In this document: one piece after another, positions 1 to 35,813 of the stretch
How the letters are laid out: every line of letters starts with the position of its first letter
How positions within the stretch are numbered: the stretch's first letter is position 1
Virus record (IMG/VR): IMGVR_UViG_3300003965_000001
Location: 1-37,129 of that record
Source: a virus
Taxonomy: Duplodnaviria; Caudoviricetes
Strand: one strand, 5' to 3'
Length of the DNA: 37,129 nt
Notes under the pieces: generated by a model
What the model saw: the letters and a program-made list of their open reading frames with translations, nothing else
The model's database searches: none
What the model was told of the DNA's origin: nothing
Program-made: the position numbers and the translations under genes

Positions 1-159
<159 letters not shown>

Positions 160-16424: not shown

Positions 16425-16712
16425 ATGCCCTTCATCCTCGCGAACTTCCAGCCGATCGGCGGCCAGTCCAAGGCCGGCAGCGCGCCGCAGCGCTTCAGCT
16501 ACAAGACGGAGGACGCCCAGACCACGGTCGATGGCGCGGGCTACTTCAACGCGGTGCGCGACAGCCTCTTCGTCGGCGACATCATCGACGTCGTCGTCGT
16601 GAATAGCAGCAACGTGGTGCAGACCTACGGGCCGCACATCGTGATGACGAAGTCCGCCACCGCCGTGGATGTGTCGAACGTCACCACTGGCACCGTCACG
16701 AACAGCGACTGA
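16425..16712 (+). CDS. Capsid decoration/cement protein
   Basis: FSYKTEDAQTTVDGAGYFN...VGDII; directly after capsid. Confidence 0.7.
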   Translation: MPFILANFQPIGGQSKAGSAPQRFSYKTEDAQTTVDGAGYFNAVRDSLFVGDIIDVVVVNSSNVVQTYGPHIVMTKSATAVDVSNVTTGTVTNSD

Positions 16713-16718
16713 GGCAGC

Positions 16719-16747
16719 GGCGCCGGCGGCGACGCGCCGCCGGCGCC
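16719..16747 (+). terminator. Perfect 13-bp GC hairpin after the capsid/decoration genes (terminator-like or RNA-stabilising; no U-tract)
   Basis: GGCGCCGGCGGCG-acg-CGCCGCCGGCGCC. Confidence 0.5.
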
Positions 16748-16762
16748 TGTGCGGAGGCAGGC

Positions 16763-17086
16763 ATGGGCAAGATCTCGGCCGACGTGCCGGACAGCGCCGT
16801 CGGCGTCCTGGCGGGCAGCTTCACGGCGACGGGCCAGAGCGCCGGCATCCTCGCCGGACGCGGGCTGAACCTCACCCTGTCCGGCACCTTCGTGGCCACC
16901 GTCACCGTCCAGCGGAGCTTCGATGGCGGCACGACCTGGCATGCTGTCTTCACGCCGGACGGGCTGGTGGCGCGGCAGTTCACCGGCCCGGTGAGCCTGT
17001 CGCTGTGGGAGCCCGAGGAAGGCGTGCTCTATCGGCTCGACTGTGCCTGGACGAGCGGCGAAGCCGTCTATCGGTTGAGCCGCTGA
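16763..17086 (+). CDS. All-beta virion protein, putative head spike base
   Basis: LSGTFVATVTVQRSFDGGTTW; SD GGAGG. Confidence 0.65.
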   Translation: MGKISADVPDSAVGVLAGSFTATGQSAGILAGRGLNLTLSGTFVATVTVQRSFDGGTTWHAVFTPDGLVARQFTGPVSLSLWEPEEGVLYRLDCAWTSGEAVYRLSR

Positions 17087-18375
17087 TGATCATTTCCCCG
17101 GTCAGCGGCCTGTTCGGCAGCGCGGGCGCGCTCGGCCTGTTCGGTGAGCGGAACGGGCTCGATCGCCCGATGATCCGCAGCCAGGCGCCGCTGCTGCGCG
17201 GCACCGGCAGCACCGCGGCGAACTACACCTTCCACGTCACCTGGGCGCTGGAATGCGAGTTCGACCTCGTCCGGCTGGTCTATCACAACAACACGGCCTC
17301 GCCCTGGACCGTGAACAACGCGGCCGTCGCGCCGAGCGCAAAATACAACAACGGCTTCGATCCGGTGACCGCGGCGGATGCGCCGGTGAGTTGGACGGCC
17401 CTGACGTTCGGCGCGGCGGGCGCGGATGGCCTCGCACCGTCGCCCTCGGGCGCGGCGACGCAGCTCGACATCCCGGCGAGCCCCAGCACCGCCCGCAACG
17501 TCTTCGCCTTCACCGATTGGTTGCGACTGTCCTCCCTGCCGCGCGCCGATGTCGGCGATGGCCGGCCGCTGCTGATGACGCGCACTTACGGCATCAATGC
17601 CGGGCTGCGCGCCTTCCCGTCGAATGCCGCCTGGCCGACGGAGAATGAGGGGCGCATCCTCCGCGCCTTCTACAAATCGGGCGGCAACTACACCACGAGC
17701 GGCTTCACCACGCCGACAGCGGATGACAGCTTCACCACGCCCTGCGGCATCCAATACTACGGTCGCCTGCGCGGGGCGACGGTCCTGTCCGTCGGCGACA
17801 GCCTGACCCAAGGCACGGCCGACGCCGACCGTAACCCGTATTCCTGGGGCCACTACGCGACGGCCCGCCTCAGCACGCGAGACCGCCCGGTGTCCTTCGT
17901 GAATGGTGGCTGGCACGGCCAGACCTCAGCGAGCTACCTGGAGAACGCGCGAACCCATCTCGAGGTTTTCCGGGCCGATATCCTGACGATGCCGACCTGG
18001 TCGCCGAACGACACCCGCACCCAGGCGGCTGCCGACATCGCCTGGCAGAACATCATGGAGGTCGCCGCCTACGCCCTCTCCAGGGGGTGCGTGCCGATCC
18101 TGGCCACGGCGATTCCCTACGGCCTCAACCTTGCGGACGACAACCTCCGCAAGGGCATGAACAACCGAGCGCGGGCCATGGCCGGTGCGGGCGCGATGCT
18201 GGTGGCGGACCTGGACGCGGCCGTGACGAATGGCGGCTCGCCCGCCGCCGTGCCGCCCGGATTGCTGGCCAGCGGTGCGCATCTCACCCCCGCCGGATAT
18301 CGGCAGTGCGGCGTCGGAGCCGCGCCGGTGATCGGGCGGGCGCTGAATGCCCTCGGGCTGCGCGTGCCGGGCTAG
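17086..18375 (+). CDS. Virion-associated SGNH/GDSL hydrolase (putative head fibre esterase)
   Basis: VGDSLT, NGGWHG, SPND, GAHL blocks; TGATG coupling at 17084-17088. Confidence 0.8.
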   Translation: MIISPVSGLFGSAGALGLFGERNGLDRPMIRSQAPLLRGTGSTAANYTFHVTWALECEFDLVRLVYHNNTASPWTVNNAAVAPSAKYNNGFDPVTAADAPVSWTALTFGAAGADGLAPSPSGAATQLDIPASPSTARNVFAFTDWLRLSSLPRADVGDGRPLLMTRTYGINAGLRAFPSNAAWPTENEGRILRAFYKSGGNYTTSGFTTPTADDSFTTPCGIQYYGRLRGATVLSVGDSLTQGTADADRNPYSWGHYATARLSTRDRPVSFVNGGWHGQTSASYLENARTHLEVFRADILTMPTWSPNDTRTQAAADIAWQNIMEVAAYALSRGCVPILATAIPYGLNLADDNLRKGMNNRARAMAGAGAMLVADLDAAVTNGGSPAAVPPGLLASGAHLTPAGYRQCGVGAAPVIGRALNALGLRVPG

Positions 18376-24900: not shown

Positions 24901-25108
24901 GCCCATGGTGGCGACCACGGGCGACGCGCTCGGCCTGGCGCTGGGCAACCCGTCGATCGGCGCGCCGGAGCCGGCGGCCGAGCTGCGCCAGGGGCCGCTC
25001 GCCGTCCCGCCCGAAGAACAGCGTCGCCGGATGGATGAGCGCCTCGGCATCCCGCTGACGCCGCCAGGCGGCGCGCCCGTGCGCCGCGTGCCGGAGCCGC
25101 GGCCGTGA
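21968..25108 (+). CDS. Internal virion (ejection) protein with SLT lytic transglycosylase domain
   Basis: RESEG...SPAGAQGPAQIMPDTA...ALMAYNWG...ETRAYV (~23330-23720; catalytic Glu codon at 23411). Confidence 0.88.
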   Translation: MSGSRGRPAAPEFAPRVLAELAPAGGGAAMVAGQQIESIGERISRLGQIGQHRLDQAAEEEAQQAGAAAGEQEPGTVMEGGGGLYRRAYNRAAIEAGGRRLEITARQEFERMAREHAADPDAFQRSAIAWRDGVLAQMPEAFRVRVAPTLDAMAAPFLRIARTQQDQHVADERGASFVAALPLRLAAIERAGLRIATDPAARTEADREQAGLRGELVALGPRTAFSFEGQHYPADSTRAGRYNLEQMAEIRRRSQDIEAVALARGAFRTGPQTLAAVEAFERRAEAGEVAGLRPDQARSVADALRRDLAQARAAQTEGQREARAALAPRVDADRAAIAESGAPVGNILDSELSAAGYDVPQYRAQERARMLGWQARQDLAGVDTPARAQEIADRFAPGSALFLADPEAARQVLLFARERGASIRAASLQDTIRDRAAELTAGAGAAVRHAAAVPQEWRPIIAEAARQHGVQEFFGQALLGRESEGRADAVSPAGAQGPAQIMPDTAANPGFGMVPLPRDAIRDPARAIPWALEYYSRLRAHFGGSDELALMAYNWGHRNVTRWIEGGRTGPVPAETRAYVAALLPAAGGDPARSGATLPPIVSPEEAIAAGQTPEWAARASAEAAEAARIAALRQAALTATPEQRRDIEAELAVVGERAAENARAAAAWREVLADRERGMREDPAGYVTATSPILHQLEQRVIQGDATALSPLLDAVRQEQARQGVPEAAQRPISVGLAQGLVQSLMALPTDAERLPALRQMLGQVRMDQQGDVLAALRMSRLPEPVAIAAAVAPRLGEAAASRLLTELTTDVGKLGLTPELTRTVRENTASLMDDSDRVGGLRARQYQATGNADFLERAAQGAVRLRHVVSVRAAASQDASGSVVRGAYEDLYGSHVAMDRRGVLALVPRGVDQAALARGLEVLRDREANRLAPGDSAAARGIRTDFSRGRWMDIGDGQFAYFPQGSPIWHVRPDGSPMVATTGDALGLALGNPSIGAPEPAAELRQGPLAVPPEEQRRRMDERLGIPLTPPGGAPVRRVPEPRP

Positions 25109-27603
25109 GCGCCATCGACTTCCTCGGCGCCCCGGCGGGCCTACAGGTGCCGTCCGACTATCGCGACCTGTTCGCCCGCTACGAGACGCCGTGGGGCGAG
25201 TTCCTCGGCGCCTCGGCGCGGGAGGGCTGGTGGGCCACCGTTGCCGGCCAGGGCGAAGCCGGCGGCCGCATCAACCGGGCCGAGATCACCGCACCGGCCG
25301 ACGACCTGGCGCCGCTCGCCGAGCCGGATTGGCGCGCCAGCCCTGAGTTCCGCCAGGGCATTCCCTTCCGACCAGGCATGACGCGCGCCGAGGCGCGGAC
25401 GCGGGCGGAGATCTTCGACGAGACCGCGGAGCGGCATCGGCTGATGGCGGGCCGCACCGGCCTCATGGCGACCGTCGCCGGCTTCGGCGCCGGCGTCGTG
25501 GGCAGCCTGCCGACCCCCGAGAACTTCATCCCCTTCGCCGGCCCTGCCTTGCGCGTGGCGCAGGCACAGCGCGTCTCGGCCCGCCTGGCGGCGATCGCCG
25601 CACGGGCGGAAGCCGCGACGGCCGGCGGCATCCTGGCGCGCGCCGGCGTCGGCGCCGCCATGGGCGCCACCGATGGATTGCTCGGCAGCGCCATCGCCAT
25701 GCCCTTCACGGTGCCGAGCCGCGAGAGTTTCGGCGACGACGTGACCTGGACGGACATCGTGCTGGACCTGGCCATGGGTGCCGCCGCCGGCGGCGTGCTG
25801 GGCGGCGCCTTCGGTGCGGCCTTCGGGCGCAACCGCGCCCGGGATGCCCGTGCCGGCACGCAGGACGCCGCTGGCGCCCCGGAGCGGGCAGCGCCGGGCG
25901 ATCCGACCATCCCCGAGCAGGATGCCGCCCTGCGCGCCCTGGCGGCCTCCGCGGTGCAGGTCGCAGACGGCGGCGAGGTGGACCTCTCGCTGCTGCCCCC
26001 GCAGGTCCGGGACATGGTCAGCGGACTGCGCGCCGAGAACCGCCGCCTGGCCGCGCAGGTGCTGCCGACCGCCGGCGAGGGCGCCAGCGTCTCGGAGCGC
26101 GCGGCCGCGCGGGCGGGCGGCCCGACCCAGCCCGCCGCGCCGGACGGCACGGGCCGGGCGGTAACGCCCGCCGGAACCGAGATCGAATTCCGCTGGGAAG
26201 TGGTGGAGGCGGATGATCTGGTGCCAAGCCACACGCTGCCCGACTTCGCTGAGAACTCGCGCTTCCCGCAGGAACTGCAACCGCGCGATCGCGGCAGCGA
26301 GGAGCGCCAGGCGCAGGTGCTGGACATCGCCGCGCGCCTTCGCCCCGAAGAGGTCGAAGCCTCGCCGCTGACCACGACGGGGGCGCCGATCGTCGGACCG
26401 GACGGCCTGGTGGAGAGCGGCAACGGCCGGACGCTGGCGATCCTCGCCGCCTATCGCCGCCAGCTCGCAACCGCTCAGGCCTATCGCGCCATGCTGGTGC
26501 GGGCCGGATTCGCGGCGGCCGAGATGCGCGAGCCGGTGCTGATCCGCCGTCGCACCACGGAGATGGACGCCGCCGGCCGGCGCCGTCTGGCGGAGGAGAG
26601 CAACGCCCGCCAGACCGATGCGCTGACCCCGGCCGAACAGGCGCGCACCGATGCGCGCGGCCTCGGCGCCGAGCAGCTGCGCCTGCTGCGCGGGCAGGAC
26701 CTGGCCTCGGCCGAGAACGGCGATTTCGTGCGTGCCTTCCTCGGCCGCCTACCCGGCACCGAGGCGCGGGACTTCTCGGCCGACGGCGCGTTGACGCCGG
26801 ATGGCGAGGCGCGGCTGCGCCGCGCGCTGGCGGCCCGGGCCTACCAGGACCCGACCCTGATCGCCCGCCTGACGCAGAGCCGCGACGGCGCGGCCGAGGC
26901 GCTGGGGCGCGCGCTGCTGGACGTGGCGCCGGCGCTGGCCCGGCTGCGCACCGCCGCGGAGGCGGGCGAGGTGCGCCCCGCGCTGCTGGCAATCGACGCC
27001 CTGGTGCGGGCGGTGCAGCGCATCCAGGCGGCGCGGGATGCGGGGCGGCCGCTGCGCAGTGTCTTCGACCAGCTCGACCTGTTCGGCGACGACGCCAGCC
27101 CGGCCGAGCGCGCCTTCCTGGACCTGCTGCTGCGCCATCCCGTGCGCCAGGACATCGGCGGCCTCGGCCGCGAGACGATCGCCGCCCGGCTTGCCGCCTA
27201 TGCACGCGCCGCGCTCGAGGCGCCGCAGCAGCCCGACGCCTTCGGCCTGCCGCCGCCGCATCTCGGCGACGTGCTGCGCGCGGCGTTTCGCGAGGCCGGG
27301 CTCGACGCGCCGCCGGCGTTGCGCGCGCTCGAGGCCGACGCCTTCCGTCCGCCGTCGGAGGAAGCGCCGCCGCCACCGCTGCCGGAAGCGCCGTCGGGCG
27401 ATCCCGTCGCCAGGGCGGCGGCGGACCTTGGAATGGACGCGGACGCCACCATCGCCGCGGCCGAGTTCGATCGACTGGCCGAGGCCGGCGGTCTGCCGCC
27501 CGAGCTGGTGGCCGATTTGCGCGATGCCGACGACCTGGTGGCCAAGACCGAGAAGGCGGAAGCGGTGTGGGCGGAAGCCGCCGCCTGCGCCGTGAGGGGC
27601 TGA
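25105..27603 (+). CDS. Internal virion protein with DdrB-like ParB domain
   Basis: Gly/Ala hydrophobic N-terminus; VVEADDLVPSH...ELQPRDR...GAPIVGPDGLVESGNGR...PVLIR. Confidence 0.8.
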   Translation: MSAIDFLGAPAGLQVPSDYRDLFARYETPWGEFLGASAREGWWATVAGQGEAGGRINRAEITAPADDLAPLAEPDWRASPEFRQGIPFRPGMTRAEARTRAEIFDETAERHRLMAGRTGLMATVAGFGAGVVGSLPTPENFIPFAGPALRVAQAQRVSARLAAIAARAEAATAGGILARAGVGAAMGATDGLLGSAIAMPFTVPSRESFGDDVTWTDIVLDLAMGAAAGGVLGGAFGAAFGRNRARDARAGTQDAAGAPERAAPGDPTIPEQDAALRALAASAVQVADGGEVDLSLLPPQVRDMVSGLRAENRRLAAQVLPTAGEGASVSERAAARAGGPTQPAAPDGTGRAVTPAGTEIEFRWEVVEADDLVPSHTLPDFAENSRFPQELQPRDRGSEERQAQVLDIAARLRPEEVEASPLTTTGAPIVGPDGLVESGNGRTLAILAAYRRQLATAQAYRAMLVRAGFAAAEMREPVLIRRRTTEMDAAGRRRLAEESNARQTDALTPAEQARTDARGLGAEQLRLLRGQDLASAENGDFVRAFLGRLPGTEARDFSADGALTPDGEARLRRALAARAYQDPTLIARLTQSRDGAAEALGRALLDVAPALARLRTAAEAGEVRPALLAIDALVRAVQRIQAARDAGRPLRSVFDQLDLFGDDASPAERAFLDLLLRHPVRQDIGGLGRETIAARLAAYARAALEAPQQPDAFGLPPPHLGDVLRAAFREAGLDAPPALRALEADAFRPPSEEAPPPPLPEAPSGDPVARAAADLGMDADATIAAAEFDRLAEAGGLPPELVADLRDADDLVAKTEKAEAVWAEAAACAVRG

Positions 27604-27606
27604 TCC

Positions 27607-30600
27607 ATGGCCGTCACGCCCGCCTGCGTCGCTGCCGTCGTGGACGCCTCCGGCGGCCGCATGAACGACGCCGAGGCCACCGACCTGATCCGCTACATGG
27701 AGACGCTGCGCAAGGCCGAGGAGGCACGCGGCAATCTGGATGGACTGGCCGATCGGGTGATGGCGCTGGCACGCCAGGATGCCGAGCGGGCGCAGATCGC
27801 CGCGGCGATCGCCAGGAAGCACGCGGCGCTGTCCGCCGTCGCCTATGCCCGCGCGCTCGAGCATCTGCGCGGCCTGGTGGCGGAGGGCCTGACCTATCGC
27901 AAGGCGGTGCTGGCGCTGCTGGAAGGCACGGTGCGCGACGCGGAACGCGGCCGCGCCAGCGTCGCCGCCACCTCGCTCGCCTATTTCGATCGCTACATGC
28001 AGGCGTGGAACCTGGCCATCGCCCGCGATCCGGAGCTGGCGAAGCGCATGCGCGATCCGGACTTTGGCCGCGCTGTCGTCATCGAGATGCGCGAGCTGCG
28101 CGACGGCGGAAAGCCCGGCCGCAGTGGCGACCCCAAGGCGCTCGAGTTGGCGCAGATCTACACGCAGGCCAGCGAGCTGGCGCGGGTGGACCTCAACCGC
28201 CACGGCGCCACGATCGGCAAGCTGGACGGGTGGAGCCCGCAAGGTCACGACGGCCAGCGGGTGATCCGCGTCGCGCAGCATGAATGGATTGACTTCATCC
28301 TGCCGCGTCTCGATCGCGAGCGGACCTTCGGCACGATGGATGACGAGCTGGTGCGCCAGGCGCTGCGCGACATCTATGACGAGATCACCCTCGGCACGTC
28401 GCGGAACACGCTGATCCCCGAGAACCCCGGGAAGGTCAGACCGGCCAACCTGGCCAATACCCTCGGCCAGTCCCGCACGCTGCACTTCCGCGATGCCGAG
28501 GCATGGCACGGCTATGCCGAGAGATTCGGCAGCGACATCCACGCGGCCATGCTCGGCCATCTCAACAAGGCCGCGAAGGCCGCGGCGCAGATGCAGGTGC
28601 TGGGGCCGAACCCGGGCGCCACCTTGCAGCGCCTTCGCCTCGCCCTGGTGGAGATGGCGCGGACCGACAAGAAGCTGACGCAAGTGCAGCGCGCCGAGCA
28701 GATCAGCAGCCTGCGCGGCGGCACGCTGATGAACCGGGCGATCGACAGCAGCTGGGCCGAGGTGTCCGGCATGAACGCCGCGCCCGGGAACATCCGGATG
28801 GCGCAGATCGGCACGACGCTCCGCGCCTGGCAGATGCTGGCGCGCCTCGGCGGCGCCGTCGTCACCTCCATCACCGACATCCCGCAGCGCTCCCTAGCGA
28901 TGACGATGCAGGGCCAGCCCATGTTGCAGGCCTGGCGGCAGAACTTCGCCGACACCTTCAGCCCCGGGAAGATGAAGTCGCGCAAGTTCCGCGAGATGGC
29001 GGCCGTGATGCATGCCGGCGTCGAAGGCTCGCGCGGGCAGATCATCGCGGCCGGCATCGCCGAGGACGCGCCCATGGGCAAGGTCCACAAGCTGACGGCC
29101 GCCTTCTTCCGCATCCAGGGGCTGACCGCCTGGCAGGACTGGCGCAAGGCGCAGGCGAGCTGGGGCCTGGCGCGATGGATGGGCTTCAACGCCGATCGCC
29201 CGCTGGACGGCATCAACGCGCGCTATCGCGCGATCCTCCGCCAGCATGGAATCGGCGCCGAGGATTGGGAGCTGATCCGATCCGTGGCGCGCGAGGTGGA
29301 GGGCGACCGCTACGTCACGCCCGACCGCATCGCCGACATCCCGCTTGCGAAGTTCGCCGGCCTGGCGAAGCCGGCGCTCGAGGCGCTGGACAAGGGGCTG
29401 GCCGAGCGCACCGCGAAGCGCGCCGCGGCCGACGCCCGCGAGGCGCAATGGGTGAAGGGCCGAACCGACAAGCTGGCGGAGACGGTCCAGCGGGGCATCG
29501 CCGGCCTTCAACGGATCAACCAGCAGGCCGAGGGCGGCCGCGACCGGCGCGTCGCCGAGCTGGTGGAGAGGCTCGGCGAATTGCAGGCACGCCTGTCCGA
29601 CCTGGCCGAATTCCAGGACGCGATCGCCGAGGGGCGGGTATGGGACCCGCCGGCGGCGCCGGCCGAATCGGCCCCCGCGGCGGCCGGCTTCGACCCCGAC
29701 ATCGCCGCCTGGCGCGCCGGTGCGGAGCTGCCTGCCGATGTCGCCGCGGCCGAAGCGCGGGCAGCCGAGCTGGCAAAGACGCCGACCAGCGAGATCCGCA
29801 CGCCGGAGCGGCTGGACCTGCAACGCCAGGCGGCCCGAGCCGTGCTGGCCGAGCGCGTTGCGCAAATTGGCGGCGCGGTCGCGGCGGAGCGCCGGGCCGT
29901 GATCGTCATGGGCCCGCCGGCCGCCGGCAAATCGACCGTCGCCGATCCCATCGCCGTGCGCCTCAAGGCCGTGGTGGTGGACAGCGACGATATGAAGGCC
30001 CGCCTGCCGAAGTTCGAAGGCGGCGTCGGCGCCGGGCGGGTGCATGAGGAAAGCGCCGTCATGGCCGAGACGATGCGGCAGGACCTGTCCGGCGCCGGCG
30101 TCAACATGGTGCTGCCGATCGTCGGCAGCGGACAGGAGCGCGTGGCCACCCTGATCGCGGAGTTGAAGGCCAGCGGCTACCGCGTCGACCTGGTGCTGAA
30201 CGACCTGCCGCTGGAAGACGCGGCGCGGCGGAACATGGCGCGGTTCCGTCGCACCGGGCGCCTGGTGCCGATGTCCTACTTGATGAGCATTGGCGACAGC
30301 CCGCGCGCCAACTATATGTCGCTCAGAGCAAAGGCGGATGGACATGCCGAATACTCCAACGCCGTCCCCCGAGGAGCCCCGCCTCTATACCGCGGAGGAA
30401 CTTCAGACCTTCTTGGGGCGGACGCCACCTCCCCCGGCGGAGGACCTGGCGGCGATCAAGGGGCTCGCCCCGGACGATCAGACGCTCGAGCTGATGATCC
30501 GGGGGCTGCGCCGCGGCCGGGAGCCGAAGGCGAAGGCGGCCGAGTAGGGCCGCGCAGCAGCAACACCGCCCGGTCCGGCGAGGCCGCCACGGGCGGCGCC

Positions 30601-31641
30601 GGCCGCGTCTTCTCGCCACGCTCCGAACGCTACCTGGACACCGGTAACCCTGCGATGCGCGCGGCGCGGGCCGAGGGCGAGCTGCGCTCACGGACGGACG
30701 CGCTGCGCAGGACGATCGGCAGCATCAACCGCGCGGCCGGCCAGGCCGAGAAGACGCGTCTCTCCGCCTTCCTGTCCTGGTGGAATGAACGCCAGGTTGA
30801 GCTCGACGACTTCGCCCGCCGCATGGATGAGCGGGCGGCCGCGCGAGCCGAGTGGCAGAAGGCCGACGATGCCGCCTGGCAGCCCCGCGCCGACGCAGCC
30901 CTGGCCGATGCGCGCCGCGACCTCGAGGTGAAGCTGCGCCGCTTCTTCGCGGATGAGATGCGGTTCGCCTACATCGAAACGGATGCCACCAGCCGGCGCC
31001 TTGCCTTGCAGGGGACGCAAGGCGGAACCGTGGTCGGCGAGATCATGCGCACGCTGGCGCAGTTCAAAGGCTGGCCGATCGCTTTCACACAGCGGACGCT
31101 CGGCCGCGCCATCTACGGACAGCCCAACCGCACCGCGATGGACCGCCTGCTGACCGGCGCGAATGTCGGCAGCGTGGTCGCCACCATGATGTTCGCCGGC
31201 TACCTCACCCTGACGCTGAAGGACCTGCTGCGGGGCTACGGCCCGCGCGATCCGACCGAGCGCCAGACCCTGCTGGCGGCCCTGGTGCAGGGCGGCGGCG
31301 CGGGAATTTTCGGGGACTTCCTCTTCGGCCAGGCCAACCGCTTCGGCGGCAGCTTCGCGGCGACGGTGGCCGGGCCTTTGGTCGGCGGCGTCGGGGAGGA
31401 TTTGCAAAAGCTCTACCTGATGGCGCGGGAGGGCGATGTGAAAAGCGGCCGCGCCCTCGGCATCCTGTTGCAGAACACGCCCTTCCTGAACCTCTGGTAT
31501 CTCCGGCCGGTGCTCGACTTCCTGGTGCTCAACGCCCTGCGCGAGCACCTCTCGCCCGGCCACCTCTCCAAGCTCGATCGCGACCGCAGGCGCGACTTCG
31601 GCCAGGAGCGCGTGTTGCCGCGCTCCGCCTTCGACTTCTGA
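27607..31641 (+). CDS. Large internal virion (ejection) protein with inserted zeta-toxin-like P-loop kinase
   Basis: Ejection-protein motifs (SRTLHFRD, GEIMRTLAQFKGWP, GGGAGIFGDFL, PFLNLWY) flank VIVMGPPAAGKST...VDSDDMK...HEES...RFRRTGRLVP. Confidence 0.85.
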   Translation: MAVTPACVAAVVDASGGRMNDAEATDLIRYMETLRKAEEARGNLDGLADRVMALARQDAERAQIAAAIARKHAALSAVAYARALEHLRGLVAEGLTYRKAVLALLEGTVRDAERGRASVAATSLAYFDRYMQAWNLAIARDPELAKRMRDPDFGRAVVIEMRELRDGGKPGRSGDPKALELAQIYTQASELARVDLNRHGATIGKLDGWSPQGHDGQRVIRVAQHEWIDFILPRLDRERTFGTMDDELVRQALRDIYDEITLGTSRNTLIPENPGKVRPANLANTLGQSRTLHFRDAEAWHGYAERFGSDIHAAMLGHLNKAAKAAAQMQVLGPNPGATLQRLRLALVEMARTDKKLTQVQRAEQISSLRGGTLMNRAIDSSWAEVSGMNAAPGNIRMAQIGTTLRAWQMLARLGGAVVTSITDIPQRSLAMTMQGQPMLQAWRQNFADTFSPGKMKSRKFREMAAVMHAGVEGSRGQIIAAGIAEDAPMGKVHKLTAAFFRIQGLTAWQDWRKAQASWGLARWMGFNADRPLDGINARYRAILRQHGIGAEDWELIRSVAREVEGDRYVTPDRIADIPLAKFAGLAKPALEALDKGLAERTAKRAAADAREAQWVKGRTDKLAETVQRGIAGLQRINQQAEGGRDRRVAELVERLGELQARLSDLAEFQDAIAEGRVWDPPAAPAESAPAAAGFDPDIAAWRAGAELPADVAAAEARAAELAKTPTSEIRTPERLDLQRQAARAVLAERVAQIGGAVAAERRAVIVMGPPAAGKSTVADPIAVRLKAVVVDSDDMKARLPKFEGGVGAGRVHEESAVMAETMRQDLSGAGVNMVLPIVGSGQERVATLIAELKASGYRVDLVLNDLPLEDAARRNMARFRRTGRLVPMSYLMSIGDSPRANYMSLRAKADGHAEYSNAVPRGAPPLYRGGTSDLLGADATSPGGGPGGDQGARPGRSDARADDPGAAPRPGAEGEGGRVGPRSSNTARSGEAATGGAGRVFSPRSERYLDTGNPAMRAARAEGELRSRTDALRRTIGSINRAAGQAEKTRLSAFLSWWNERQVELDDFARRMDERAAARAEWQKADDAAWQPRADAALADARRDLEVKLRRFFADEMRFAYIETDATSRRLALQGTQGGTVVGEIMRTLAQFKGWPIAFTQRTLGRAIYGQPNRTAMDRLLTGANVGSVVATMMFAGYLTLTLKDLLRGYGPRDPTERQTLLAALVQGGGAGIFGDFLFGQANRFGGSFAATVAGPLVGGVGEDLQKLYLMAREGDVKSGRALGILLQNTPFLNLWYLRPVLDFLVLNALREHLSPGHLSKLDRDRRRDFGQERVLPRSAFDF
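30338..30547 (+). CDS. Nested +1-frame small protein overprinted in the large ejection gene; candidate antitoxin (start 30338 or 30344)
   Basis: GC-rich third positions move to this frame; the host frame becomes Gly/Arg/Asp low-complexity with A/T-ending codons. Confidence 0.6.
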   Translation: MDMPNTPTPSPEEPRLYTAEELQTFLGRTPPPPAEDLAAIKGLAPDDQTLELMIRGLRRGREPKAKAAE

Positions 31642-34003: not shown

Positions 34004-34067
34004 GCGATCAGGAGTTGGACGGCACCGAAGTTGGATTGCGGGTTGAGATCACGGCAAACTGCCCAAC

Positions 34068-34112
34068 TTCGTAATCAGTAGGTCCCCGGTTCAAATCCGG
34101 GTGTCGGCACCA
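34068..34112 (+). other. attR core: 3' half of tRNA-Thr(CGT)
   Basis: TTCGTAA anticodon loop, T-arm CCCGG-TTCAAAT-CCGGG, TGTCGGC-A-CCA; no 5' half upstream. Confidence 0.88.
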
Positions 34113-34382
34113 GCACTTAGCGGACTTATCCACAACCGCTGCGCGCAATTGGGCATCAACGGGGCATCGGCGTCGGCGGGTCACCGCGGGGGTGTGGTGC
34201 GCGTTCTTCGCCGAACCCGGAAAAAAGGCATACGGATGCGAAGTGCTGTTAGCACGGGCGCAAGCGAGGCTGGCTGCGGCTTTCCGCCCGCTGAATGCTG
34301 CTGGAGAATCTGGTTTTTGCTACGCCTTGAAACCGACAATGGCGACCGCCGAATGGGGTCGGTGAAGTCGCCGGCGTCGGTG

Positions 34383-35055
34383 GGGCCGCACCGGGGCGGG
34401 GGCAACGCAGGACATACATCGCGCGGCGCGGCCACTGCAGGGCCATCCCCGCGTGGGCGGGGGCACCGGGCGTCTGCTCGGCGTGGCTGATCCGGCGATG
34501 GGGCCATCCCCGCGTGGGCGGGGGCACCCGCATAGGTGTTGATGAAGCTGTTCACGACGAAGGGCCATCCCCGCGTGGGCGGGGGCACCCGGCGGCGGCA
34601 GCCTCGTCGTCGGAAGATCGCGGGGCCATCTCCGCGTGGGCGGGGGCACCCGCACTGCCGGAGGAGGACGCCGCCACGGTGAAGGGCCATCCCCGCGTGG
34701 GCGGGGGCACCGAGGCCCCCCCGCAGAAGGCAACGCCGGTGGAGGGGCCATCCCCGCGTGGGCGGGGGCACCGGCACCGGGCGAAGCTGGGCATACTGCG
34801 ACTGGGGGCCATCCCCGCGTGGGCGGGGGCACCCCGAAGATCGTGATGCCGCCGGCGCTCGCGTTGGGGCCATCCCCGCGTGGGCGGGGGCACCGGGTTA
34901 CGGTAGCGTTTCCCGATGCGCTGTGCGGGGCCATCCCCGCGTGGGCGGGGGCACCCTACGGAGCAACCCGCTATCATGCGCCATTCCGGGGCCATCCCCG
35001 CGTGGGCGGGGGCACCAGAGACGCTTTCCCATTGGGGTAGCCGGGGCCGGGGCCA
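34383..35055 (-). CRISPR. Type I-E CRISPR array: 10 full 28-nt repeats (34440-35016, 61-nt period), one degenerate trailer repeat (~34383-34406), one 6-nt repeat stub (35050-35055), 11 spacers of 33 nt; no leader
   Basis: Repeat GGTGCCCCCGCCCACGCGGGGATGGCCC on the minus strand; plus-strand starts 34440, 34501, 34562, 34623 (1 SNP), 34684, 34745, 34806, 34867, 34928, 34989. Confidence 0.97.
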
Positions 35056-35813
35056 AAGGGGAAGAAGCCCTCGTCAGTGTTCGAGGCGATCCAGTCGGCG
35101 AGCGAGAGCAAACCGGCGAACCCGTGCAAGGCGGAGTCGGGCAGCGGGCTCATTCGCTCCACCGCGAGCAGGCTGCCCGGTAGCCAGGCCGCAAGCGCAG
35201 CGCAGAGGGAGCGCGCCTCCGCGACGGGGTCATAGTCCTCCGCCGGCCGCCAGAGCGGCAGGCATCGGTGCGCTTCGAGTTCAAGCGACGCTTGCGGCAG
35301 GGGCGCGCCGTGGTGGCCGAGCGCCGCCAGCAGCAACTTGCCGGCGGGAGTCGCAGGCACGAGGAAGCTCCCGCCCTCGGGGATCGAAATGCGGTGCCCG
35401 CCAGCCGGACGAAAGAGAAGCGGTCCGACCTCCGCGAGATGTCCGGCGATCGGCCCGCCTCCGCGTTCCCCTTTCGGACGCTGCTTGCGCCAGAAGCCGA
35501 GATTGGCTTTGCCGATATCGTGCAGGAAGGCCGCGCCAATCATCGCCGCCTGTTGATCGTCGGTGATCTCGGCACCGGCGAGATGAGCCAACTTCGCCCT
35601 GAGCGACGGGATCGCGATCAGTGCCGCGAAGACGGCCGCCACGTCAGCCGCGTGGTCGGTCAGTGAGAGGTAAGCTACTGGCCATGCATCAGGGGATGGG
35701 CGCTCCAATTTTCCCCAAGCGTGCGAACCGATTGGAGTAAGGTCCGCGCCAACGCCCGCCCGCTGCGGCAGTCCCGATGGTCCGTCGCGCTTGCCCCGAG
35801 TCTGCCGTCCCAT
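34974..35813 (-). pseudogene. cas3: Truncated cas3: HD nuclease domain only, frame runs into the CRISPR array
   Basis: AWGK, DHAADVA, LHDIGKA, GHL, GHHG, LADWIAS motifs; helicase absent; exact start uncertain. Confidence 0.88.

What the first reader, a model, noticed from the sequence alone, without database searches (positions are those of the whole stretch)
29350..30930. Zeta-toxin-like kinase inserted at the tip of a predicted coiled-coil stalk in the largest ejection protein
Seen: Walker A GPPAAGKST (29911-29937), VDSDDMK, VHEES and RNMARFRRTGRLVP, which match the zeta/PezT-like kinase pattern. Long charged helices lie on both sides (LEALDKGLAERTAKR...LQARLSDLAEF and LRSRTDALRR...LADARRDLEVKL) and interrupt the ejection-protein core. 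Established: PezT/zeta phosphorylates UDP-GlcNAc and the related AvrRxo1 phosphorylates NAD. Inference: a virion-delivered small-molecule kinase that poisons or reprograms the infected cell, or neutralises a defence signal.
Basis: partly seen in the sequence, partly recalled or inferred. Interest (0 to 1): 0.85.

Follow-up and report, generated by a model that had tools for sequence, protein, structure and literature searches.

The report
Injected phage kinase with hidden inhibitor
A zeta-toxin-like kinase is spliced into the middle of a phage protein that is likely injected with the DNA, and a second small gene, hidden in a shifted reading frame right behind it and conserved across many phages, encodes a peptide predicted to bind the kinase and likely to keep it switched off in the cell that builds the virion.

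Summary
The kinase is real. It occupies aa 727-929 of the 1344-aa gene 27607-31641, has the zeta fold (VIA Z 18.6 to 1gvn) and keeps the catalytic residues. It lies in a ~300-aa insert that an 80%-identical homologue lacks. The 'stalk' models as a four-helix bundle, with the insert in its middle loop rather than at a tip. Such an ATG-started ORF follows the kinase in 54 of 60 family clusters (3.9 expected). It has a ribosome-binding site, and substitutions favour its frame. It is predicted to bind the kinase's acceptor face (ipSAE 0.77, best control 0.22). Best reading: a mobile kinase-plus-inhibitor cassette that can insert inside DNA-delivery proteins because the inhibitor gene is overprinted. 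Zeta's UDP-GlcNAc contacts are replaced, so the substrate is probably another nucleotide-type molecule. Zeta-like cargo in virion proteins is in print (Iyer 2017); ten searches found no paper on the overprinted partner. Injection, toxicity, inhibition and substrate are untested.

The parts
27607..31641 (+). 1344-aa ejection-type virion protein (phrog_684 core; phiV10/epsilon15-type; weakly T7 gp16-like by fold) carrying the cassette
   Evidence: PHROG E 4.9e-139; phiV10 and other homologues of core P0046; top Foldseek rows for P0002 are PhiM1 ejectosome (E 0.022) and T7 core (E 0.11), none at E<=0.001
27607..29346 (+). N-terminal part of the conserved core (aa 1-580)
29362..29634 (+). Helices 1-2 of the optional helical insert ('stalk'); predicted half of a four-helix bundle
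   Evidence: H588-640 and H647-674 in the P0002 model; bundle matches such as 1yo7 Z 11.2, rmsd 2.5, 117 aligned
29653..30549 (+). Mobile cassette (aa ~683-981): N-terminal cap, kinase and overprinted partner gene; absent from P0002
29785..30393 (+). Zeta-fold P-loop kinase (aa 727-929); K775, D794, R875, R879 and R885 invariant in 54 of 54
29911..29937 (+). Walker A GPPAAGKST
30326..30343 (+). Shine-Dalgarno-like stretch before ATG 30344 (duplex -7.1 kcal/mol)
30338..30547 (+). Overprinted +1-frame gene, 69 aa from ATG 30338 or 67 aa from ATG 30344; predicted kinase-binding inhibitor
30643..30921 (+). Helices 3-4 of the helical insert
   Evidence: H723-754 and H761-829 in the P0002 model
30907..31641 (+). 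C-terminal part of the conserved core (aa 1101-1344)

Best explanation
The insert is a mobile two-gene cassette, a zeta-fold kinase read in frame as part of an ejection-type virion protein plus a small gene overprinted in the +1 frame directly behind it, whose product is predicted to bind the kinase's substrate face and likely acts as its inhibitor. SHOWN: the kinase and its catalytic residues; the insert's limits; the conserved +1 ORF with ATG, ribosome-binding site and selection on its frame. PREDICTED: the partner binds the acceptor side, not the P-loop. INFERRED: late in infection one mRNA yields both the 1344-aa protein and the free partner, which keeps the kinase off in the producing cell. 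The carrier is packaged and unfolds through the tail. The partner is left behind or stripped, so a few unopposed kinase copies reach the new cell's cytoplasm. There they would phosphorylate a sugar hydroxyl of a nucleotide-type small molecule, dampening host metabolism or defence at entry. My odds for the substrate: NAD/ADP-ribose-type dinucleotide or signal 0.4, UDP-sugar 0.25, nucleic-acid end 0.2, other 0.15. Overprinting is what lets the pair sit inside a host gene: the carrier reads through the partner gene as a G/R/D/P-rich linker.
For: Gene is real: an ATG-started +1 ORF of >=45 aa begins 24-8 codons before the kinase end in 54 of 60 clusters, against 292 of 3993 control windows (3.9 expected); +2 frame 0 of 60; SD median -8.0 (n=54) vs -3.1 kcal/mol (n=292), p 1.5e-17. 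With the main-frame protein fixed and codons resampled: 50 of 52 observed vs 15.6 expected, and with SD 41 vs 6.9. In 29 disjoint pairs, substitution rates by main-frame codon position are 0.135/0.083/0.401 in the kinase but 0.248/0.156/0.170 in the linker; the nested protein is more conserved than the linker in 21 of 29 (p 0.024). It tracks the kinase: its stop is 3 nt before identity to P0002 resumes; none lies inside 19 kinase-free cores, one lies in kinase-bearing L014. Where the kinase ends its carrier, gene callers report the same ORF with the same start in 2 of 5 cases. Binding: ipSAE 0.77 (runs 0.77, 0.76, 0.85), best of 3 controls 0.22; runs share >=50% of contacts; partner pLDDT 53-79; the mark was reached by 116 of 157 solved and 2 of 215 mismatched pairs, roughly valid for own alignments. 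The interface (kinase residues 14-35, 61-67, 87-130, 165-169) covers the equivalents of zeta E100, T118, R120, T121 and T128 and avoids both the P-loop (43-50) and the stretch that shares DNA with the partner (186-203). Mobility: the kinase is 56% identical to that of P0079, whose core is only 28-37% identical. Carriers bear ddrB-ParB, LPD38, ART-PolyVal, portal, relaxase or MuF domains. AvrRxo1 has the same order: toxin, then small binding partner (PMC5491322 passage).
Against: There are no expression, virion-proteomic or activity data. The partners are very divergent (mean column identity 18%). The window's own partner does not beat shuffles against a leave-one-out family profile (88 of 200 shuffles as good; likewise L003 47 of 200, L081 36 of 200, L137 29 of 200), so 'one family' rests on position more than sequence. 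There is no NAT-over-NAC codon bias at the start window (87 of 160 vs 2167 of 4242). In 8 of 29 pairs the main frame was more conserved. The 60 clusters are related, not independent. A predicted interface cannot tell an inhibitor from an activator. The core's gp16-like identity is weak by fold (best E 0.022), and which side of the membrane the loop reaches is unknown. The acceptor-residue mapping comes from an HMM alignment, not a superposition.
Confidence: 0.62

Rival explanations
1. Classical zeta activity: the delivered kinase phosphorylates UDP-GlcNAc or a related UDP-sugar and weakens cell-wall synthesis to ease DNA entry, as Iyer et al. 2017 suggested; the partner is an epsilon-like antitoxin. 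This differs from the best explanation only in the substrate.
For: Zeta and PezT are the best sequence-profile and fold matches. The catalytic D67 and K46 equivalents are invariant. The proposal is in PMC5512222 (passage).
Against: Zeta T118 (needed for toxicity in PezT) is V in 49 of 54 and T in 1; R120 is R in 5 of 54; T121 is T in 5; T128 is T in 6; E116 is P in 54 of 54; a family-specific His-x-Glu is near-invariant. Distant relatives occur in haloarchaeal viruses, whose hosts lack peptidoglycan (recalled).
Confidence: 0.22
2. The partner is a needed subunit or chaperone. It replaces the C-terminal helices that zeta has and this kinase lacks, or steadies the domain until packaging, rather than inhibiting it.
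For: The model aligns only to zeta residues 2-215 of 272. The predicted interface is large (124-131 contacts) and includes an edge strand.
Against: The kinase alone models at pLDDT 94.7. The interface covers the acceptor-site positions. The partner is barely conserved, which fits a co-diverging inhibitor better than a catalytic subunit.
Confidence: 0.12
3. The pair is a selfish toxin-antitoxin module that colonises tolerant loops of DNA-delivery proteins and gives the phage no benefit against defence; at most it penalises cells that lose the element.
For: Most carriers lack it (30 of 34 stalk homologues have an empty loop). It jumps between unrelated carriers, including a relaxase.
Against: Carriers are mostly of kinds delivered with DNA. 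The same loop also takes a PBECR1-like nuclease (P0031, E 5.8e-5, below cut-off), which points to a cargo slot.
Confidence: 0.15
4. The domain is a polynucleotide-kinase-like enzyme that heals 5'-OH ends of RNA or DNA cut by host nucleases; the partner regulates it.
For: PNKs are the next-best folds (4gp6 Z 14.8, 4xrp Z 13.1). The lid motif resembles Pnkp1, the best single-sequence kinase hit (E 0.073).
Against: Zeta, PezT and AvrRxo1 score higher and align the N-terminal helix (from model residue 2-4); PNKs align only from residue 39-40. There is no ligase or phosphatase in the cassette.
Confidence: 0.15
5. The +1 ORF is reached by a programmed frameshift and gives the kinase an alternative C-terminus, instead of being translated on its own.
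For: The ORF overlaps the kinase's last ~20 codons in most loci.
Against: ATG plus strong SD sit at a fixed position. +1 stops are dense just upstream (0.087 per codon at -30..-21). The ORF is called as a free gene where the kinase is C-terminal.
Confidence: 0.06

Closest known systems
Epsilon/zeta (S. pyogenes, PDB 1gvn/3q8x) and PezAT (2p5t)
   Same: Fold including the N-terminal helix (Z 18.6 and 17.2); Walker A Lys and catalytic Asp; a small helical partner
   Different: UDP-GlcNAc contacts are not kept. The partner is predicted on the acceptor face, whereas epsilon blocks the ATP site and leaves the UNAG site free. The partner has no Pfam match, is encoded after and inside the toxin gene, and the toxin is an internal domain of a virion protein.
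AvrRxo1-Arc1 (PDB 4z8q)
   Same: Zeta-type fold (Z 15.8); delivered kinase with a small binding partner encoded downstream
   Different: ~20% identity; delivered by type III secretion, not a virion; Arc1 is a separate gene; NAD specificity not tested here
Phage polyvalent proteins and MuF fusions with zeta-toxin-like kinase (Iyer et al. 2017, PMC5512222)
   Same: A zeta-like kinase as cargo of proteins transferred with DNA; co-occurrence with ddrB-ParB, LPD38, ART and PBECR domains
   Different: The passages seen name conjugative polyvalent proteins and MuF fusions, not this ejection core. They propose cell-wall weakening and mention no partner gene ('overlap' occurs 0 times in the main text).
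Embedded phage genes such as lambda Rz1 in Rz (recalled; also named notes)
   Same: A small same-strand gene in the +1 frame whose product works with the host gene's product
   Different: Here the nested gene belongs to a mobile cassette and overlies a linker, not a conserved domain.

Membership tests
Zeta toxin (PF06414) fold family | Pfam score above gathering cut-off | tested here: met
   46.9 bits vs 22.3
Zeta toxin (PF06414) fold family | Zeta-type P-loop kinase fold with N-terminal helix | tested here: met
   Z 18.6, rmsd 2.9, 196 aligned, model range 2-212
Zeta toxin (PF06414) fold family | Walker A Lys and catalytic Asp (zeta K46, D67) | tested here: met
   K775 and D794 invariant in 54 of 54
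Zeta/PezT UDP-GlcNAc kinases | UNAG contacts E100, T118, R120, T121, T128 | tested here: not met
   E 19, T 1, R 5, T 5 and T 6 of 54; this protein has E, V, S, G, L (residues; mapping by HMM alignment)
Zeta/PezT UDP-GlcNAc kinases | Phosphorylates UDP-GlcNAc | not testable with these tools
   needs an assay
Epsilon/zeta TA system | Epsilon-family antitoxin that blocks the ATP site | tested here: not met
   No Pfam family for the window's partner and no Epsilon_antitox match in 54 partners; predicted interface avoids the P-loop
AvrRxo1-like NAD kinases | NAD-binding residues and 3'-NADP formation | not tested
   Only fold (Z 15.8) and profile hit (E 6e-4); no residue mapping made
Polynucleotide kinases (T4 Pnk, Pnkp1) | Closest fold is PNK | tested here: inconclusive
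   Z 12.7-14.8, below zeta/PezT/AvrRxo1; N-terminal helix unaligned
Type II toxin-antitoxin pair | Adjacent small gene whose product binds the toxin | tested here: met
   Gene. Binding is predicted only (0.77 vs 0.22).
Type II toxin-antitoxin pair | Toxicity neutralised by the partner | not testable with these tools
   needs co-expression
Podovirus gp16-like ejection protein | Gene between tail tube and tail fibre in the internal-virion block | tested here: met
   tube genes, phrog_418, SLT protein, this gene, tail fibre
Podovirus gp16-like ejection protein | Structural likeness to T7 gp16 | tested here: inconclusive
   PhiM1, T7 and E1004 core proteins fill 6 of the first 12 rows, best E 0.022
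Podovirus gp16-like ejection protein | Present in virions and ejected | not testable with these tools
   homologues are annotated 'virion structural protein'

The most novel reading that the evidence does not exclude
Phages run an internal polymorphic-toxin system. An effector enzyme and its immunity gene travel as one cassette in which the immunity gene is overprinted in the +1 frame, so the cassette can drop into a loop of any injected protein without breaking it. The 'low-complexity linkers' after cargo domains are hidden immunity genes. This kinase branch (1,494 representatives at E<=1e-30) acts on a substrate other than UDP-GlcNAc, possibly an NAD-derived or nucleotide immune signal.
Probability: 0.45. 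Interest if true: 0.88.

Novelty: new variant of a known kind. Interest (0 to 1): 0.76.

Why it matters
It suggests how phages can carry toxic enzymes inside injected proteins without poisoning the cell that makes them, and it shows that standard annotation misses the protective gene. It makes a large, unstudied kinase branch testable: the predicted inhibitor should allow cloning and purification, and a dedicated inhibitor implies real activity on an essential substrate. If the rule extends to other cargo domains, many 'linkers' in giant phage proteins need re-reading.

Tried and rejected
Assembly artefact: rejected; independent contigs match across both junctions. No joint that skips the cassette was seen, and a joint at 29747/30536 with 38 other letters was not trusted. 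Expression: no RNA holder listed. Conserved ATPase of the chassis: rejected; Walker motif in 3 of 78 hits, one of which is not a core homologue. Internal promoter or terminator in 29600-30700: none. NAT/NAC bias: null. Partner family: no Pfam hit for the window's partner, two isolated weak hits among 54, no Atlas hit. Heptad periodicity: helices 1-2 peak at 3.6-3.67, not 3.5; helices 3-4 show no clear peak. Core fold: no Foldseek match at E<=0.001; the VIA list was filled by the bundle, so the core was barely tested. P0021's 205-aa loop cargo: no Pfam hit, weak likeness to P0031's (E 0.036). Cultured phages: only distant kinase relatives at 20-31% identity, 14 records; not examined for partners. 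L005-L007 (another subfamily): no partner signal seen in L005 or L006; excluded from the counts. PMC10386132 passages were uninformative.
Full report
CONTEXT. The window is a single 37,129-bp contig. It holds a podovirus-type temperate phage: repressor, primase, terminase, portal, T7-type scaffold, capsid, tail tube genes, an internal-virion block and a tail fibre. The 3' half of a tRNA-Thr at 34066-34115 likely marks the attachment site. The finding lies in ORF 27607-31641 (P0001, 1344 aa). Its core matches phrog_684 (E 4.9e-139) and is related, through P0046, to virion proteins of phiV10, BcepC6B, VP2/VP5 and pelagiphages (126 records). 'Ejection protein' rests on gene order, these annotations and a weak fold likeness to PhiM1/T7 core proteins (best E 0.022). 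In T7, gp16-C is placed in the cytoplasm (PMC8954989 passages).

OBSERVATION. All quoted motifs are present. Among 78 hits, 34 carry both halves of the helical insert. In 30 of these the connecting loop is 0-52 aa. Four have 191-335 aa: P0001 and P0023 (kinase), P0031 (PBECR1-like, E 5.8e-5, below cut-off) and P0021 (unassigned). P0002 is 79-80% identical on both sides and lacks aa ~683-981. Its AlphaFold model (pLDDT 85.3) shows helices 588-640, 647-674, a disordered loop 689-718, then 723-754 and 761-829. Residues 587-806 match four-helix bundles. From that topology I infer that the loop lies at the core-side end of the bundle, not at a tip; I could not inspect coordinates. P0079 and L014 (Roseococcus MAG) carry the kinase at the same core site without the stalk.

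THE KINASE. The model (pLDDT 94.7) is closest to zeta (Z 18.6, rmsd 2.9, 196 aligned), then PezT 17.2, AvrRxo1 15.8 and PNK 14.8. In 54 aligned members K775, D792, D794, K797, E815, P837, R875, R879 and R885 are invariant. The zeta UNAG contacts named in PMC3062530 (passages) are not kept. A profile finds 1,494 representatives at E<=1e-30. I scanned 30 carriers (29 of the 61 cluster representatives plus L022): 5 have ddrB-ParB, 3 LPD38, 2 ART-PolyVal, 1 a portal and 1 a Mob_Pre relaxase domain. Two others have MuF. In 58 kinase loci (my count rows) the kinase sits in the gene just upstream of a homologue of this core. The P0001 kinase is closer to that of P0079 (56%; cores 28-37%) than to that of P0023 (43%; cores 46-54%), so the module moves between carriers.

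THE HIDDEN GENE. Main-frame GC3 falls from about 0.9 to 0.5 over aa ~905-980. The +1 frame there is an ORF at 30338/30344-30547. Of 137 loci plus the window, 122 hit the kinase profile. I kept 112 with a full-length match at E<1e-40, dropped 10, and reduced them to 61 clusters at 80% identity. A loose scan found an alternative-frame ORF in 59 of 61, of which 58 are in +1; two of those (L034, L117) look like unrelated downstream genes. The strict test gave 54 of 60 against 3.9 expected, 0 of 60 in +2, and SD energies of -8.0 vs -3.1. The +1 frame is stop-free for 50 codons in 50 of 53, against 292 of 1345 control windows. Resampling synonymous codons gives 15.6 against 50 of 52 observed, so the carrier's protein sequence explains part of the signal but not most. 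In 29 disjoint pairs, substitutions shift from main-frame position 3 in the kinase to position 1 in the linker, which is the partner's wobble position (chi-square p 1.5e-7). A blind scan of nine long window ORFs returned this ORF and one ordinary gene. None was found inside 19 kinase-free cores; the two hits in L138 and L142 were upstream genes. Standard callers report the partner as a gene in 2 of 5 look-ups where it reaches or passes the carrier's end, and 0 of 5 where it is nested. Partners are 50-105 aa (median 62), S/T-rich, then acidic, then basic. Against: sequence homology is weak. Profile tests beat shuffles for L112, L120, L014, L031, L106, L025 and L060 (0-5 of 200), marginally for L058 (12), and not for L137, L081, L003 or the window (29, 36, 47, 88 of 200). 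There is no NAT bias.

BINDING. The complex prediction passed: 0.77 against a best control of 0.22, partner pLDDT 53-79, runs sharing at least half their contacts. The calibration (116 of 157 solved, 2 of 215 mismatched) holds only roughly for my alignments. The partner lies over the acceptor side. Shared DNA could create false covariation between partner residues 1-17 and kinase residues 186-203, but those kinase residues are not in the interface. The result supports binding and does not show it. Only this one pair was modelled.

MECHANISM. I commit to a toxin-immunity cassette (0.62). Inferred steps: co-expression from the late transcript, inhibition in the producer, packaging and ejection of the carrier without the partner, and phosphorylation of a nucleotide-type metabolite in the new host. 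The rivals are classical UNAG activity, an activating subunit, a selfish module, PNK-like repair and frameshifting; they are weighed in their own section.

WHAT IS KNOWN. PMC5512222 (passages) mentions zeta-like kinases in conjugative polyvalent proteins and phage MuF fusions and proposes cell-wall weakening. I did not see its online architecture files, which may list this carrier. PMC4284463 (passage) notes halovirus zeta genes of unknown role. PMC5491322 (passages) gives the AvrRxo1-Arc1 precedent. PMC5923241 was seen only as a listing with the start of its abstract. Ten searches showed no paper on an overprinted partner of a virion kinase. The library lacks most subscription papers and bioRxiv supplements, so this is not proof of absence. 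Earlier unchecked notes of this scan describe +1-frame genes after zeta or peptidase cargo in other phages; they are leads, not support.

VERDICT. This is a new variant of a known kind; interest 0.76.

Noticed in passing
window 34066-34115: 3' half of a tRNA-Thr just after the tail-fibre gene (86% to annotated tRNA-Thr; not found by ARAGORN or Rfam): likely the prophage attachment site.
   Followed up: partly
window 34441-35016 and 34974-35813 (-): CRISPR array of 10 repeats with a 61-bp period, running into a truncated Cas3-HD ORF (Pfam E 4.3e-24). No spacer matches the window beyond short chance hits. It lies outside the presumed att site; the type I-E label is recalled.
   Followed up: partly
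window 25105-27603: The neighbouring ejection-type gene carries a ddrB-like ParB cargo domain (aa 357-484); no nested ORF passed the scan. In many related loci the gene at this position carries the zeta-like kinase.
   Followed up: partly
P0031 aa ~675-866; P0021 aa ~681-886: The same loop holds other cargo: PBECR1-like in P0031 and an unassigned domain in P0021. No DNA was available to test for nested genes.
   Followed up: partly
L031:6575-6892; P0080: In L031 the kinase is fused to a Mob_Pre relaxase and the partner's core is duplicated in tandem. P0080 repeats its post-kinase linker, which suggests a duplicated hidden gene.
   Followed up: no
L152 core aa 258-563; L168 core aa ~640-887; P0038, P0044, P0069, P0074: Other helical inserts in the same core, some at a second site near aa 250: this protein family repeatedly grows helical extensions.
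   Followed up: no
window 16763-17086: A 107-aa ORF with SD and gene-like codons inside the mechanically called 16669-18375 ORF; probably a separate gene, with the GDSL-lipase gene starting later.
   Followed up: no
window 1-60: The contig begins with a run of AGCCGT repeats.
   Followed up: no
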